A stretch of DNA of 64,000 nt from Candidatus Binatia bacterium (GCA_963664395.2 OY761159.2:3513710-3577709); one strand, 5' to 3'; shown: positions 33,019 to 38,881, counted from the first letter of the stretch. Notes: a model not told the origin generated them from the letters alone. Made by a program: numbers and translations.

Positions 33019-33116
33019 ATCCCCTCCTTGGAGGGAAAGAGGAAACGTGTCCTCAACAGAGTAGGCAGATGTTGACACGTTTCCTCTTTGTGCCGCGTGA
33101 GCGGCGGGGTGGGTTT
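33019..33116. repeat. Family-A element (reverse orientation) split by a family-B hairpin (33037-33090)
   Basis: Reads tcccctccttggaggg | aaagaggaaacgtgtcctcaacagagtaggcagatgttgacacgtttcctcttt | gtgccgcgtgagcggcggggtgggtt. The same composite occurs at 38669-38766. Confidence 0.85.
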
Positions 33117-33140
33117 CTTCTGGGTTTCTTCTCTGGGGGG

Positions 33141-33212
33141 AAGCTAAGACAAAAGAGGCAGGGGGCAACCCACCCCGGCCCTTCGGGCCACCCCTCCAAG
33201 GAGGGGAGCAGA
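33141..33212 (+). repeat. Left copy of the direct repeat flanking the DUF559 gene
   Basis: Reads agctaagacaaaagaggcagggggcaacccaccccggcccttcgggccacccctccaaggaggggagcaga. Confidence 0.85.
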
Positions 33213-33216
33213 GATT

Positions 33217-33606
33217 ATGAAGCGGAAGATCGTGCCGTATAACCCGCGATTGAAGGAACTCGCTCGGCAACTTCGGAAGCAGATGACGCGGGCGGAGGCT
33301 CTGTTGTGGCAACAGCTCAAGGCACGGCAGATGGAGGGCTGTGACTTTGACCGACAGCGCCCTATCGATGAGTATATCGTGGACTTTTTTAGTAAGGACC
33401 TCATGCTGGCCATTGAGATTGATGGAGTAACACACGATACCGAAGCTGGACAGAAAAACGATCAGCGGAGGCAGAAACGCCTGGAAGCTCTGGGTGTCCG
33501 ATTTTTGCGCTTTCAGGATGAGGAGGTCAAGCAGAATCTGGAAGGAGTGTTGACGGTCATTCGGGGGTGGATCGGGAAGAATAAACCCACCCCTCCGAGG
33601 AGCTAA
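33217..33606 (+). CDS. DUF559 (Vsr-like) endonuclease-domain protein
   Basis: 129 aa with 'RAEALLWQQLKARQMEGCDFDRQRPIDEYIVDFFSKDLMLAIEIDGVTHD...RRQKRLEALGVRFLRF'. Confidence 0.85.
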   Translation: MKRKIVPYNPRLKELARQLRKQMTRAEALLWQQLKARQMEGCDFDRQRPIDEYIVDFFSKDLMLAIEIDGVTHDTEAGQKNDQRRQKRLEALGVRFLRFQDEEVKQNLEGVLTVIRGWIGKNKPTPPRS

Positions 33607-33663
33607 GACAAAGGGGCAACCCACCCCGGCCTACGGCCACCCCTCCAAGGAGGGGAGCAGAAC
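33600..33663 (+). repeat. Right copy of the direct repeat flanking the DUF559 gene (overlaps its stop codon)
   Basis: Reads agctaagacaaaggggcaacccaccccggcctacggccacccctccaaggaggggagcaga. Confidence 0.85.
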
Positions 33664-33712
33664 ACATCCCCTCTCGGTCAAGGCTCTCACTATCACCATA
33701 AGTGACATTTTT

Positions 33713-33932
33713 ATCCCCTCCTCGGAGGGGTGGCCCGCAGGGCCGGGGTGGGTTCCTGGCACGCCCTCACGAGGAAACCCACCCCGCCGCTACGCGGCAC
33801 CCCTCCTGGGAGGGGATGGTGAAGGGAGCGCTACGCGGCACCCCTCCTGGGAGGGGATGGTGAAGGGAGCGCTGCGCGGCACCCCCTTCGACTGGGCTCA
33901 GGACAGGCCCCCAAGAGGGGATGGTGAAGGGG
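33713..33932. repeat. Family-A cluster: one reverse copy, then three tandem 41-nt units, the third carrying a 23-nt family-C insertion
   Basis: The units start at 33789, 33830 and 33871. The repeated ggggATGgtgaaggg motif sits at 33816, 33857 and 33921, so the spacing is 41 and then 64 (41+23). Confidence 0.85.
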
Positions 33933-33983
33933 GATGCGGGTGACTGCTTGACAACCGAAACCGGGTTTGAACTAATACGCCAC

Positions 33984-34292
33984 ATGGCCGCCGCCGAAGA
34001 CACAAGCTGGGAATACACGTTAGGCCGCATTGATGAGCGGACCGAGAACCTGGAGAAGCGCGTTGATGAACGGTTCGAGAACCTGGAGAAGCGCATTGAT
34101 GAACGGTTCGAGAACCTGGAGAAGCGCATTGACGAGCGGTTCGAGCATGTGGAACAGCGTCTTGGACGTGTGGAGTTTGATGTGAAGGGTATTCAGAAGA
34201 CGATTGACGAGAAGATGCTCAACAAGACAACCTTCTTCACGTTTACCAGCGTTGGCGCCGGTCTCCTGGCCGCGATGATCGCGCTGAAGTAG
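33984..34292 (+). CDS. Tail-anchored coiled-coil protein with four 33-nt (11-aa) tandem repeats
   Basis: Contains 'IDERTENLEKRVDERFENLEKRIDERFENLEKRIDERFEHVEQRL' and a C-terminal TM segment 'TTFFTFTSVGAGLLAAMIAL'. The tracked ATG at 33921 lies inside a repeat unit, so the ATG at 33984 is preferred. The start is uncertain. Confidence 0.6.
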   Translation: MAAAEDTSWEYTLGRIDERTENLEKRVDERFENLEKRIDERFENLEKRIDERFEHVEQRLGRVEFDVKGIQKTIDEKMLNKTTFFTFTSVGAGLLAAMIALK

Positions 34293-34333
34293 CTGTTGTG
34301 AAACACTCCTGACTCAAGCCAACCCCTTTGCTA

Positions 34334-34363
34334 TTGACACCTTTTCCAAGAGTACACTATAGT
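34334..34363 (+). promoter_or_regulatory. Candidate sigma70 promoter
   Basis: TTGACA-N18-TATAGT lies about 30 nt upstream of the 34393 ORF. Confidence 0.45.
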
Positions 34364-34392
34364 AATTTCATAATGCGCAAGGCTTTACGGGA

Positions 34393-34869
34393 GTGGGAAA
34401 CGAGCACGTGGTGATGGAAAAGTCCGGACGCTACCAGCCAGCCATACGCGGCATCGTGGGGGGAGTTGTCCTAGTAGCAGCCCTGGCCGCATTCCTTGGG
34501 TCGAGTCAGTCCGAAGCCGGGATTAAACAACGGGCCACGGCGTTCTGGGAAGCCCGTATCCAGGGTGACGACTTGACAGCCTATCAATACGAAACCTATG
34601 CCCACACCGGAGAGCTGACCGCCACGCAATATATCCAGGCCCTGTCGCCGATGCTGAAATACATGGCTTACACCATCGACACCATCCAGGAGCAGGAAAA
34701 CGAAGCCTCGGTCACGGTCAATGTGCGATGCCGGATAGACATTCCGGGCATGCTTGACGTGCCCTTATCTATGCCGATAAAGGAGCGTTGGGTGCGTCTT
34801 GACGATAGCCAGTGGTACCGCAACGTCAAACCCGAAAAGCTCGGCAAGGCCGCCCGTCGGCAGGGCTGA
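34393..34869 (+). CDS. Hypothetical exported protein
   Basis: 158 aa with an N-terminal hydrophobic segment 'IVGGVVLVAALAAFLGSS' followed by a soluble domain. No family recognised. The start may be the ATG at 34414. Confidence 0.6.
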   Translation: MGNEHVVMEKSGRYQPAIRGIVGGVVLVAALAAFLGSSQSEAGIKQRATAFWEARIQGDDLTAYQYETYAHTGELTATQYIQALSPMLKYMAYTIDTIQEQENEASVTVNVRCRIDIPGMLDVPLSMPIKERWVRLDDSQWYRNVKPEKLGKAARRQG

Positions 34870-34877
34870 ATGTTTGC

Positions 34878-37467: not shown

Positions 37468-37474
37468 AATACCA

Positions 37475-37500
37475 AAAGCCCGGTCACATGGCCGGGCTTT
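37475..37500. terminator. Hairpin after the RelE remnant
   Basis: aaagcccgg-tcacatg-gccgggcttt. Confidence 0.5.
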
Positions 37501-37540
37501 CTATCTCCACCACCTCCCATGGGCTAGGGTGGGCAGAAGC

Positions 37541-37612
37541 TACTAACATCACCCCTAACACGGCTCAGACACACGGAGGCAAGGGTTGCGGCCCTTACCT
37601 CCTTTTTTTGTC
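37541..37612 (+). terminator. Family-E terminator module copy 2
   Basis: taacatcacccctaacacggctcagacacacggaggcaagggttgcggcccttacctcc followed by T7. Confidence 0.7.
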
Positions 37613-37665
37613 CGCGATCAGACGCGTATTTTGCTGGCAATAAAGACTTGGTGGCGGAGGAGAAA

Positions 37666-37693
37666 TGAAAAAGCCCGGCTGATTGGCCGGGCT
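37666..37693 (-). terminator. Rho-independent terminator of the minus-strand coiled-coil gene
   Basis: The minus strand reads agcccggc-caatca-gccgggct followed by TTTTT. Confidence 0.6.
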
Positions 37694-37713
37694 ACAATGT
37701 TCGCAATGCCTGT

Positions 37714-37953
37714 CTACTCTGGTAGAAACTTTGCCGCCAGGGCGCCGAGAGAGAGCAACAAGGCTATCACGCTCACAAAAACACTGTTCTTGCCTTTGGT
37801 CGCCTCGTGTTTCGCCTCTTCCACTTCTGCTTTCGTCGCAATATGAGGGAGGGTCGCTTCTATTTTGGCAAGGCTCACTTTTATATCAGTGACATCCGCC
37901 TTCATTTCATGGATGTCTGTTTCTATCCGCTGAAGGCGTTCATCTGTCTCCAT
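37714..37953 (-). CDS. Tail-anchored coiled-coil protein
   Basis: 79 aa: 'METDERLQRIETDIHEMKADVTDIKVSLAKIEATLPHIATKAEVEE...' with a C-terminal TM segment 'SVFVSVIALLLSLGALAAKF'. It has the RBS agagggaagag and an AT-rich upstream region. Confidence 0.6.
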   Translation of the reverse strand: METDERLQRIETDIHEMKADVTDIKVSLAKIEATLPHIATKAEVEEAKHEATKGKNSVFVSVIALLLSLGALAAKFLPE

Positions 37954-38034
37954 GATCTCTTCCCTCTATCACATTATTCATCCGCATACCTTATAATACA
38001 TAAACTATTGTGCAAGAACCTGCTATGCGGTCCA

Positions 38035-38270
38035 ACTCCCCCCAGATATCTTCGATTAAAAGGCAGATAGATTCCCCATCCCCTCTTTGTGCCGCGTAGG
38101 GGCGGGGTGGGTTTCGTAGTTTCGCCGCGCTGCCCGAACGAAGAGGGAACCCACCCCGGCCTGCGGCCACCCCTCCAAGGAGGGGAGTATCCACCCCGGC
38201 CTGCGGCCACCCCTCCAAGGAGGGGAGCTGGAGGGTCTTGGCTTTGTGTTCTGCCGGGCGAGTTGGTAGG
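38035..38270. repeat. Composite repeat module: family D (C6 tract), A reverse, spacer, two tandem A forward copies, and a shared 43-nt leader
   Basis: The leader ctggagggtcttggctttgtgttctgccgggcgagttggtagg (38228-38270) recurs at 38839-38881. Confidence 0.85.
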
Positions 38271-38534
38271 GTGAGCGTCAAGGGTTGGGAGGGAACTATC
38301 AACAATCTTACATTCTCGCCGGAAGCGGTTGCGGCTCTGCAAGCGCTGGTCGCCCCGAACTGGGTGGACATCGGGGGGCTTATCATCGGGCTGGCGCAAT
38401 GTGGCTTGATTTATTACGGCCTGAGACTAATGAACCTGGGGTCCGCGGAACGCACAGCGCAACTCACGGCCCAGCACGAAGAAGCCATGACGGCCCTCAA
38501 GGAACTCATCCACCGGACCACTTCTCGTCCATAA
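38271..38534 (+). CDS. Small membrane protein (hypothetical)
   Basis: Contains the TM segment 'IGGLIIGLAQCGLIYYGL' followed by a helical tail 'AERTAQLTAQHEEAMTALKELI'. The GTG at 38271 sits at the end of the shared leader. The start is uncertain. Confidence 0.45.
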   Translation: MSVKGWEGTINNLTFSPEAVAALQALVAPNWVDIGGLIIGLAQCGLIYYGLRLMNLGSAERTAQLTAQHEEAMTALKELIHRTTSRP

Positions 38535-38591
38535 ACGCCAGACACCCGCCGAATCCCCTGCGGTTATAGCCCTTCTTATCGACGATTGGGT

Positions 38592-38662
38592 GTAACATCA
38601 CCCAGAACACGACTCAGACAGCAGAAGACAAGGGTTTCGGCCCTTGCCTTCTTTTTTTGTCC
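38592..38662 (+). terminator. Family-E terminator module copy 3
   Basis: taacatcacccagaacacgactcagacagcagaagacaagggtttcggcccttgccttc followed by T7. Confidence 0.7.
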
Positions 38663-38668
38663 TGAACA

Positions 38669-38881
38669 ATCCCCTCTTGGGAGGGAAAGAGGAAACGTGT
38701 CCTTAATAGAGCAGGTAGATGTTGACACGTTTCCTCTTTGTGCCGCGTAGCGGCGGGGTGGGTTTCGTAGTCTCGCCGTGCTGCGCTGGCCGAACAGGAA
38801 CCCACCCCGGCCTTCGGCCACCCCTCCAAGGAGGGGAGCTGGAGGGTCTTGGCTTTGCGTTTTGCCGGGCGAGTTGGTAGG
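38669..38881. repeat. Composite repeat module: A reverse split by a B hairpin (38687-38740), spacer, A forward, and the shared leader
   Basis: Same architecture as 38035-38270 and 33019-33116. Confidence 0.85.

What the first reader, a model, noticed from the sequence alone, without database searches (positions are those of the whole stretch)
33019..38881. Nested micro-repeats: short GC-rich elements inserted inside one another
At least five families are visible.
- **A**: about 42 nt, (A)ACCCACCCCGGCC..CGGCCACCCCTCC-AAGG-AGGGGAG, built from two short hairpins.
- **B**: about 54-nt hairpin, AAAGAGGAAACGTGTCC...GACACGTTTCCTCTTT.
- **C**: 23-mer, CCTGTCCTGAGCCGAGTCGAAG.
- **D**: about 60 nt, ACTC(Cn)AGATATYTTCGATTAAAAGGCAGATAGATTC.
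- **E**: the terminator module.

Family A copies are interrupted by B at exactly the same point in two loci (33036/33037 and 38686/38687). They are interrupted by C in two different positions: once within the third 41-nt unit (inserted 23-mer at about 33886-33908), which changes the unit spacing from 41 to 64 nt, and twice in tandem at 36899-36945.

Elements only 23-54 nt long that insert into each other behave like miniature mobile or templated-insertion elements. No transposase, RAYT or integrase is present in the window.
Basis: seen in the sequence. Interest (0 to 1): 0.6.

Follow-up and report, generated by a model that had tools for sequence, protein, structure and literature searches.

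The report
Nested short repeats, three independent families
This stretch is a patchwork of three unrelated short DNA repeat families stacked inside one another, and one of them, only 22-24 bases long, has been gained or lost at exactly the same spots inside two conserved genes of sister species, which puts it among the smallest insertion-like DNA modules seen in bacteria.

Summary

- **A (about 100 copies):** not new. It is a BoxC/PIT-type "intrastrand triplex" repeat (hairpin plus mirrored G-block) carrying an extra hairpin. It occurs in many phyla. The only gene it consistently brackets is a DUF559 nuclease, which sits in this region at 33217-33606. This scan has reported that DUF559/BoxC pairing before on other DNA.
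- **B (47 copies):** an independent 54-nt perfect hairpin with no target duplication.
- **B-in-A:** the two cases are copies of one composite A::B family, found in 16 of 28 genomes of the genus with up to 26 copies. They are not two independent hits.
- **C (37 copies):** a real insertion-like module of 22-24 nt with no predicted fold. It lies at four or more positions within A, in a second triplex-type repeat, and in frame inside genes.
- **Orthologous sites:** in two conserved genes, sister species differ by exactly 24 nt. Some carry tandem or nested copies (+66, +84, +114 nt).
- **Spread of C:** patchy across the phylum, with one burst of 123 copies.
- **D and E:** local 2-3-copy duplications only.

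The copying mechanism is inferred, not shown. The closest published analogue is the small dispersed repeats of cyanobacteria.

The parts
33019..33115 (-). A::B composite: an A copy (subtype with hairpin GCCGC/GCGGC) with B inside the 5' arm of its second hairpin
   Evidence: (D6, D9). It folds as three hairpins, -28.8 kcal/mol, z -6.9.
33036..33089 (.). B: 54-nt perfect hairpin of the rare 'GAGGAAACG' subtype
   Evidence: dG -18.3 kcal/mol, z -7.3.
33167..33208 (+). A copy 9 nt upstream of the DUF559 start codon
33217..33606 (+). DUF559 (Vsr-like, IEIDGxxHD motif) nuclease gene. It is the only copy in the genome and is bracketed by A copies.
   Evidence: PF04480 E 6e-31. PDB 3hrl 1.6e-23 and I-Bth0305I 1.9e-4. 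Cross-phylum association with A-like repeats.
33618..33657 (+). A copy starting 12 nt after the DUF559 stop; a partial A-like head (AAACCCACCCCTCC, 33583-33596) lies inside the gene's 3' end
33713..33817 (.). Head-to-head A pair (33713-33754 minus, 33776-33817 plus) that can fold as one long hairpin
   Evidence: I3. dG -41.3 kcal/mol, z -6.1.
33788..33933 (+). Three tandem 41-nt units made of the 3' part of A; the third unit is lengthened to 64 nt by C
   Evidence: (D8, D14, D16)
33886..33907 (+). C copy (CTTCGACTGGGCTCAGGACAGG) between CACCCC and the rest of hairpin 2
   Evidence: The same position is used in two other A copies that have different hairpin-1 stems (C1:3195857, 3203437).
36823..36879 (+). 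D, copy 1 (2 copies in the genome): part of a local duplication that also carries the adjoining A
   Evidence: (D10)
36870..36958 (-). A copy whose first hairpin holds two abutting C copies (36900-36921 and 36922-36944)
   Evidence: Its paralogue at 38078-38111 has no C at that point (D11, 82).
36615..36684 (+). E, copy 1: intrinsic terminator module (3 copies, all in this window; the others are 37544-37613 and 38593-38662)
   Evidence: (D3)
38031..38087 (+). D, copy 2
38078..38111 (-). A remnant that reads as an A::B composite after deletion between two CCTCTT repeats (ATCCCCTCTT|TGTGCCGCG)
   Evidence: read by comparison with 38669-38764; the derivation is inferred
38148..38227 (+). Two direct A copies, with starts 41 nt apart
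   Evidence: (D4)
38669..38764 (-). Second A::B composite (B at 38686-38739), 93% identical to the first
   Evidence: (D6)
38799..38838 (+). A copy; with its flanks it is 95% identical to 38191-38273 (segmental duplication)
   Evidence: D5
59152..59173 (-). C copy in frame inside a GT2-like glycosyltransferase gene (58992-60029). The full insert is 24 nt (59151-59174).
   Evidence: The orthologous site is empty in 8 species and 2 outgroups, and carries +24, +66, +84 or +114 nt in others.
10262..10315 (.). Stand-alone B copy of the common 'GAGTAAACG' subtype, not inside A

Best explanation
The region is a mosaic, comparable to the BIMEs of E. coli, of three unrelated short-repeat families plus local duplications.

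- **A** is a BoxC/PIT-type motif: a pyrimidine block CCCCTCC, its complement GGAGGGG, and a mirrored third block GGGGTGG. An extra GC hairpin sits in the second loop. It occurs singly, as inverted pairs and in alternating arrays.
- **B** is a 54-nt perfect hairpin that mostly lies just past gene ends.
- **C** is an unstructured 22-24-nt module.

Nesting arises in two steps.
1. A short module is copied into a site. I infer this happens by repair or replication synthesis templated on another copy and primed by a few bases of homology, not by a cut-and-paste transposase. The structure-prone 5' arm of A's second hairpin is a favoured site.
2. The resulting composite (A::B, A::C-short) is then multiplied as a unit by whatever multiplies A.

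**Shown:** the families are independent, the composites are families in their own right, and C is gained or lost precisely at orthologous sites.

**Inferred:** the templated-copy mechanism and the fragility of A.
For: **The families are independent.**
- B is nearly always outside A: 47 copies, only 2 in A.
- C is abundant in genomes with no A: G007 47 copies, G017 46, G034 41.
- C was not found as a family in five other-phylum genomes that carry A; the only hit was one isolated match among 87 A copies in the Opitutales genome.

**A is a triplex-type motif.** In 80 metagenome loci the third block mirrors the purine arm in 151 of 334 strand instances, against 31 in controls. It co-varies with five stem variants. 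The published TMECO consensus and its link to genomic instability are in PMC4666352.

**Hairpin 1 is kept by compensatory changes.** 71 of 75 copies have 4-5 bp stems of five or more types.

**The composites are families.** The A|B junction occurs in 16 of 28 genomes, with up to 26 copies.

**Gain and loss of C.**
- GT2 gene: the site is empty or carries +24, +66, +84 or +114 nt, and the empty site already reads CCTGTCC, the first 7 nt of C.
- G000 (+24) and G039 (empty) are sisters with 100/100 support, so roughly four or more events are needed.
- Radical-SAM gene: +24 nt in 10 species and absent in 18, including outgroups. The set of filled species differs from that of the GT2 gene.

**Against a transposon-type origin.**
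- C has no predicted fold.
- B has no target duplication in 42 of 47 copies.

**Other support.**
- C is patchy across the phylum with one burst: 8 of 150 other genomes, 123 copies in G115.
- Relatives show alternating arrays of two A subtypes.
Against: - No step of the copying was observed.
- Exact 24-nt loss by slippage between the 7-10-nt direct repeats that flank the GT2 insert could explain some empty sites, so the count of gains is uncertain.
- At the radical-SAM site there is no clear microhomology.
- Tandem C copies differ in their central 3-4 nt (CGA against CCTA at 36900-36944). Simple slippage duplication does not predict this.
- All relatives are separate species, about 76-80% identical in a neighbouring gene.
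Confidence: 0.55

Rival explanations
1. **Nuclease-driven system.** The DUF559 nuclease encoded at 33217-33606 recognises A (hairpin or triplex form) and nicks or cuts it. Repair from other copies then spreads and homogenises A and its composites, and occasionally captures foreign short sequences (B, C) at the break. This would be a REP/RAYT-like partnership run by a Vsr-fold enzyme.
For: - It is the only DUF559 gene in the genome, and it is bracketed by A.
- Within the genus, only this DUF559 subfamily lies in A arrays.
- Its cross-phylum relatives (57-62% identity, against 38-45% for paralogues in the same genus) are flanked by A in Opitutales, Nodosilinea and Chamaesiphon.
- In 80 metagenome loci the hairpin motif lies within 200 nt of the gene in 66. 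Density is 4.9 per kb near the gene against 0.13 per kb away.
- The two flanks are inverted repeats that co-vary within each locus (p = 9e-11).
- Genome-specific repeat variants match the flanks of that genome's own DUF559 gene.
- All seven genus genomes with 70 or more A copies carry the gene.
- The protein is related in sequence to the homing endonuclease I-Bth0305I.
- B, C and a 26-nt cyanobacterial insert all enter hairpin 2.
Against: - No activity, cut site or binding is known.
- Genomes without the gene still hold 20-59 A copies (G004 51, G039 39), so the gene could be a passenger sitting between repeats.
- C spreads in genomes with no A and enters genes that have no A nearby, so the nuclease cannot explain C.
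- Earlier checks in this scan priced the 'nuclease moves its repeats' reading at only 18-27 in 100.
- Related genomes are not independent samples.
Confidence: 0.25
2. **No insertion at all.** The 'filled' copies are only longer subfamily variants that diverged by ordinary mutation and duplication.
For: - A::B and the A form with the short C (CTTCGACAAGCTCAGGAC) each have a fixed junction and behave as families.
- D, E and the 190-nt blocks at 38082-38273 and 38733-38884 are plain segmental duplications.
Against: - C lies at four or more different positions in A, with different hairpin-1 stems.
- C also lies in another repeat family and in three reading frames of unrelated genes.
- There are exact 24-nt indels at orthologous sites, with outgroups empty.
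- B and A exist separately in large numbers.
Confidence: 0.07
3. **Classical mobilisation in trans.** A Y1 (RAYT / IS200-like) or other transposase encoded elsewhere in the genome moves A, B or C as REP- or MITE-type non-autonomous elements.
For: - Three RAYT-like genes exist: C1:3119288-3119956, 3111943-3112314 and 976908-977384.
- A forms REPIN-like inverted pairs.
- C usually follows CC (26 of 37 copies), which could be a target preference.
Against: - The RAYT-like gene that was inspected is flanked, and even interrupted, by a different repeat (GGGGCAACCCCC...GGTTGCCCCTACAT). None of the three has an A within tens of kb.
- tblastn with this RAYT-like protein found no such gene in the 99 cross-phylum A loci.
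- C has no hairpin.
- B has no target duplication.
Confidence: 0.07
4. **RNA-mediated insertion.** C is copied through an RNA intermediate by a reverse transcriptase, as was proposed for the cyanobacterial small dispersed repeats.
For: - The size class and the nesting behaviour match those elements (my own knowledge of Elhai et al. 2008; the paper is cited in PMC4390886).
- There are precise boundaries without target duplication.
Against: - No reverse transcriptase was sought or linked.
- C occurs in both orientations relative to genes.
- Nothing here bears directly on RNA.
Confidence: 0.05

Closest known systems
BoxC / PIT elements / TMECO intrastrand-triplex repeats (Holder et al. 2015, PMC4666352)
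   Same: - A has the three defining blocks: a pyrimidine arm, a complementary purine arm and a mirrored G-rich third block.
- It is intergenic, highly conserved, dispersed and found across phyla.
- Its surroundings are unusually variable.
- A second family in this genome (CCCTCACCCC...CTCTCCC-N4-GGGAGAGGG) is close to the E. coli consensus.
   Different: - The blocks are CCCCTCC / GGAGGGG / GGGGTGG, not CCCTCNCCC / GGGNGAGGG.
- Loop 2 is not 3 nt. It holds a 4-5-bp GC hairpin maintained by compensatory changes.
- The paper found no associated mobility gene, whereas here a DUF559 nuclease gene is bracketed by the repeat.
Small dispersed repeats (SDR1-8) of heterocyst-forming cyanobacteria (Elhai et al. 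2008, Genome Res 18:1484; recalled from my own knowledge; cited in PMC4390886; the paper is not held)
   Same: - C is 22-24 nt, dispersed, and nested in other repeats and in tandem with itself.
- It is inserted at precise points and differs between related genomes.
- No enzyme is known for it.
   Different: - It occurs in a different phylum (a Binatia-like genus).
- Its sequence is presumably unrelated, though this could not be compared here.
- C has no predicted fold.
- C is documented here in frame inside conserved protein genes, with orthologous empty sites.
BIMEs and REPINs with RAYT (E. coli, Pseudomonas; survey in PMC3733652)
   Same: - Two A subtypes alternate in opposite orientation, with alternating short (12-14 nt) and long (21-37 nt) linkers.
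- Inverted pairs fold as long hairpins.
- A single-copy gene sits between the repeats.
   Different: - The gene is a PD-(D/E)xK / Vsr-fold DUF559, not a Y1 transposase.
- There is no GTAG or CGTC tag.
- The genome's RAYT-like genes go with another repeat.
Rickettsia palindromic elements read in frame
   Same: A repeat is inserted in frame in conserved protein genes and is kept in the open reading frame.
   Different: Those elements are 100-150 nt and palindromic (my own knowledge). C is 24 nt and unstructured.

Membership tests
BoxC/PIT/TMECO triplex motif (for A) | Three consecutive blocks: a pyrimidine arm, a complementary purine arm, and a third block that mirrors the purine arm | tested here: met
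   A read on its minus strand is CCCCTCC-N4-GGAGGGG-...-GGGGTGG. The mirror block is present 7/7 in 151 of 334 strand instances against 31 in controls, and it co-varies with five stem variants.
BoxC/PIT/TMECO triplex motif (for A) | Published E. coli consensus CCCTCNCCC N3-6 GGGNGAGGG N3 GGGNGAGGG, with a 3-nt second loop | tested here: not met
   The block sequence differs, and loop 2 is 13-17 nt holding hairpin 1. Metagenome relatives do have 3-4-nt loops such as TTA or CTA. A is therefore a variant, not TMECO itself.
BoxC/PIT/TMECO triplex motif (for A) | Forms an intrastrand triplex in vitro | not testable with these tools
   ViennaRNA models only Watson-Crick hairpins.
REP/REPIN-RAYT | A RAYT (Y1 transposase) gene flanked by the same repeats | tested here: not met
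   Three RAYT-like genes exist. None is near an A, and the one inspected is flanked by another repeat.
REP/REPIN-RAYT | Short intergenic palindromes that form inverted doublets | tested here: met
   Many tail-to-tail pairs about 12 nt apart and head-to-head pairs. The pair tested folds at -41.3 kcal/mol, z -6.1.
REP/REPIN-RAYT | A GTAG or CGTC tag at one end (PMC3733652 abstract) | tested here: not met
   A ends read AACCCACCCC and GGAGGGGA(G/T).
MITE (for B) | Terminal inverted repeats plus a target-site duplication | tested here: not met
   The arms are a perfect 17-nt palindrome, but 42 of 47 copies have no abutting direct repeat. No parent IS was sought.
Small dispersed repeats (for C) | 21-27 nt, dispersed, nested in other repeats and in itself, and variable between relatives | tested here: met
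Small dispersed repeats (for C) | Membership of the described SDR1-8 sequence families, which are confined to a cyanobacterial subgroup | not testable with these tools
   The paper is not held. The host here is a Binatia-like genus, inferred by matching contig lengths.
EDxHD / Vsr-like homing endonucleases (for the DUF559 gene) | Sequence relationship to a characterised member | tested here: met
   Profile against PDB: 3r3p (I-Bth0305I) at E 1.9e-4 and 3hrl at 1.6e-23.
EDxHD / Vsr-like homing endonucleases (for the DUF559 gene) | Resides in an intron or intein and cleaves the empty allele | tested here: not met
   The gene is free-standing between repeats. Cleavage cannot be tested here.

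The most novel reading that the evidence does not exclude
C is a self-standing 22-24-nt mobile module, among the smallest known. It enters other repeats and, in frame, conserved protein genes. It multiplies in bursts and moves between lineages, using an enzyme or repair route that nobody has identified. In the same genome, the BoxC-type repeat A is the substrate of the DUF559 nuclease it brackets. 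Together the two systems would explain the nested mosaics.
Probability: 0.3. Interest if true: 0.8.

Novelty: new variant of a known kind. Interest (0 to 1): 0.6.

Why it matters
- Very short dispersed repeats are usually dismissed as noise or annotated as spurious peptides. Here one of them gives clean empty and filled alleles inside conserved genes. That makes the question 'how does a 24-nt sequence get copied into a new place?' testable with amplicon sequencing or strain series.
- The analysis shows that apparent 'same-site double hits' can be composites copied as units. This is a caution for repeat annotation.
- It adds a Binatia-like genus, with copy-number data, to the growing evidence that BoxC/PIT repeats have a protein partner (DUF559). 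These repeats have lacked a known partner since the 1990s.

Tried and rejected
- **Rfam:** a scan of 32500-39500 gave nothing above any gathering score.
- **DUF559 from the repeat side:** tblastn of DUF559 against 99 cross-phylum A loci gave only one hit. I nearly dropped the idea, but the test from the gene side was decisive.
- **RAYT as the partner of A:** rejected.
- **B as a MITE:** there is no target duplication.
- **C travelling with A:** rejected. No C family was found in five other-phylum genomes that hold A (one isolated match only), and C is abundant in genus genomes without A.
- **D and E as families:** rejected.
- **Orthologous empty or filled sites for A or B in intergenic DNA:** not attempted beyond the locus downstream of the secretin gene. 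Relatives are only about 76-80% identical, and that locus is occupied by different repeat systems in different species.
- **Elhai et al. 2008:** could not be read.

Full report
**What is there.**
The window is C1:3513710-3577709 of a 5.04-Mb, 57% GC genome.

- Seven plain A copies lie in the region.
- Two A::B composites lie at 33019-33115 and 38669-38764.
- One C sits in the third 41-nt unit at 33886-33907.
- Two abutting C copies sit at 36900-36944, inside the A copy at 36870-36958.
- D has two copies and E has three.

Reversed-pattern controls gave 0 or 1 hit per genome (a single hit in all) in the genus and phylum pattern scans. No Rfam family reaches its threshold.

**Census.**
- **A:** 70-75 strict copies and 109 nhmmer hits.
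- **B:** 47 copies. The common form is AAAGAGTAAACGTGYC...GRCACGTTTACTCTTT, and it is almost always outside A.
- **C:** 37 copies of CTTCGAC-N2-5-GCTCAGG(ACAGG).
- **D and E:** found only in this window. E copies score as intrinsic terminators.

D, E and the blocks at 38082-38273 and 38733-38884 are ordinary local duplications around small coiled-coil genes.

**What A is.**
Read on its minus strand, A is CCCCTCC-N4-GGAGGGG, then a 4-5-bp GC hairpin, then GGGGTGGGTT.
- The GC hairpin is kept by compensatory changes: GCCGC/GCGGC 24 copies, GGCC/GGCC 18, GGCCC/GGGCC 18, GGCGC/GCGCC 4-5, GCTGC/GCAGC 1. In all, 71 of 75 copies are paired.
- The last block is the mirror image of the purine arm, with T opposite A.
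I read the paper (PMC4666352) and tested the defining feature. In 80 metagenome loci the mirrored third block is present in 151 of 334 strand instances, against 31 in controls. It changes together with the stem across five stem variants.

A is therefore a BoxC/PIT-type motif whose second loop holds an extra hairpin. The exact E. coli consensus is not met.

A is widespread.
The hits came from Binatia, Cyanobacteria, Verrucomicrobiota, Kiritimatiellia, Acidobacteria, Chloroflexota, Nitrospira, Bacteroidota and others.
- Strict copy numbers are 87 in an Opitutales genome, 62 in a Chamaesiphon genome and 17 in Nodosilinea PCC 7104.
- In the genus, copy number runs from 0 to 179.
- In relatives, two A subtypes alternate in opposite orientation with alternating short and long linkers, as in BIMEs. 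A head-to-head pair folds at -41.3 kcal/mol, z -6.1.

**The gene inside the cluster.**
The region does hold the genome's only DUF559 gene (33217-33606), with A copies on both sides.

- Within the genus, only this DUF559 subfamily lies in A arrays. Fused and other small DUF559 paralogues have no flanking A elements: of 21 such loci, one has a single partial A hit about 750 nt from the gene.
- Its relatives in Opitutales, Nodosilinea and Chamaesiphon (57-62% identity, against 38-45% for paralogues in the genus) are also flanked by A.
- In 80 metagenome loci of this clade, the hairpin motif lies within 200 nt of the gene in 66. Density is 4.9 per kb near the gene against 0.13 per kb away.
- The two flanks are inverted repeats with their G-blocks facing the gene, and they match each other better than they match other loci (p = 9e-11).
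- In a Chloroflexota genome, the variant repeat that flanks its DUF559 genes is also dispersed through that genome (13 copies, absent from the other four genomes tested). In a Nitrospira genome the variant has only three copies, all at the DUF559 locus.
- All seven genus genomes with 70 or more A copies carry the gene.
- The protein is related to the homing endonuclease I-Bth0305I.
- I found no paper linking DUF559 to repeats.

This scan has reported the pairing several times on other DNA. Later checks there priced the 'nuclease moves its repeats' reading at 18-27 in 100. I keep it as a rival at 0.25, because genomes without the gene still hold up to 59 A copies.

**B in A.**
- The junction CCCTC-N4-GAGGG|AAAGAGGAAACGTG occurs 82 times in 16 of 28 genus genomes, up to 26 times in one genome. 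In 80 of 82 cases it carries the rare G subtype of B.
- The two copies in the window are 93% identical.
- A::B is therefore one composite family of about 97 nt that folds as three hairpins. It is not two hits at one point.
- The remnant at 38078-38111 reads as an A::B that lost B and half of hairpin 2 between two CCTCTT repeats. This is inferred.
- B alone has no target duplication (42 of 47 copies) and often lies within 150 nt of a long-ORF stop.

**C.**
C has no predicted fold (0 kcal/mol). It lies in the following places.
- In A, in at least four configurations:
  - replacing the 3' half of hairpin 1 (about 10 copies, a family of its own);
  - between CACCCC and TCC in three A copies with different hairpin-1 stems;
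  - replacing hairpin 1 altogether;
  - as tandem pairs.
- In a TMECO-like family (4-5 copies).
- Inside about 14 long ORFs, in three reading frames.

- The site is empty in eight species and two outgroups.
- It carries +24 nt in six species.
- It carries +66, +84 or +114 nt in four species, made of tandem C copies with an inverted long C nested in the first copy. All lengths are multiples of three.
- The empty site already reads CCTGTCC, the first 7 nt of C.
- On a local tree, G000 (+24) and G039 (empty) are sisters at 100/100 support. Roughly four or more gain or loss events are needed.

A second case is a radical-SAM gene. It shows +24 nt in 10 species and none in 18, including the outgroups. 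The set of filled species differs from that of the GT2 gene.

C copy number in the genus runs from 0 to 47 and does not follow A. In the phylum it is patchy: 8 of 150 other genomes, with one genome holding 123 copies. No C family was found in five genomes of other phyla that hold A (one isolated match only).

**How it most likely works.**
- *Shown:* there are three independent families; composites are propagated as units; and C is gained or lost precisely at orthologous sites, with tandem and nested growth.
- *Inferred:* short modules are copied in by synthesis templated on another copy and primed by a few bases of homology. The structure-prone arm of A's second hairpin is a favoured site, since B, C and a 26-nt cyanobacterial insert all enter there.
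- *Weak points:* the radical-SAM site shows no clear microhomology. Tandem C copies differ in their centres. Slippage loss could explain some empty sites.

**Compared with what is known.**
- A is a variant of BoxC/PIT repeats, arranged in arrays like BIMEs.
- C behaves like the small dispersed repeats of cyanobacteria. I recall that paper from my own knowledge; it is not held here.
- The in-frame residence of C recalls Rickettsia palindromic elements, at one fifth of their size.

**Verdict.**
The finding is real. It is partly ordinary (A, B, D and E, and the two composites). C makes it interesting.

Noticed in passing
G000:C1:3119288-3119956 (L001:1393-2064, minus strand): A RAYT-like Y1 transposase ORF (223 aa, HUH and YWEH motifs). 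It carries, in frame, about 40 codons made of another repeat (GGGGCAACCCCC...GGTTGCCC / GGGCAGGC...GCCTGCCCCTACAT), which also lies just downstream of the gene. Two further RAYT-like genes exist in the genome.
   Followed up: partly
window 33005-33990 and the same locus in L003-L009: The spacer after the secretin gene is a repeat hot spot filled differently in each species. G011, G018, G012 and G002 have A arrays plus DUF559. G006 and G004 have another REP family (GCGGGCTGGAAGCCCGC..CTCCCAG) with what I read by eye as a RAYT-like gene (not searched). G007 has no repeats. DUF559 lies on the opposite strand in the relatives.
   Followed up: partly
L152:1395-1457, L152:1189-1253, L157:1571-1633 (Chamaesiphon): A copies next to DUF559 carry a 26-nt insert (GTTCGCGTAGCGTCTGCCTTCGCAGA) in the loop of hairpin 2. 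A Chloroflexota copy (L158) carries a palindromic 27-nt insert in the same hairpin. Nesting into this hairpin therefore recurs in other phyla.
   Followed up: no
G000:C1:2214107-2215832 and C1:2215569-2217498: Two adjacent long ORFs that I read by eye as methyltransferase-like (not searched) each hold a C copy in frame (read as PSTGLRTG and PVLSPVEG). Orthologues were not compared.
   Followed up: no
G115 (same phylum, another family): A 3.3-Mb genome holds 123 strict C copies, while most genomes of the phylum have none. It is a good place to look for whatever copies C.
   Followed up: no
window 34026-34157: A 33-nt in-frame tandem repeat (RIDERFENLEK-type) lies in a small coiled-coil gene (33921-34292). 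Paralogues of different length follow in the relatives.
   Followed up: no
window 35100-36640: About 1.5 kb has no ORF longer than 164 aa on either strand, only short ORFs in several frames. It may be a broken gene or non-coding DNA.
   Followed up: no
L009 (G004), about 780-960 nt after the secretin stop: A MITE-like insert of about 190 nt with 28-nt inverted ends (CTAGAGCAAATTACGATTCCGTGTAGCC) interrupts an ORF that I read as RAYT-like (not searched). The insert itself contains long C-type sequences.
   Followed up: no
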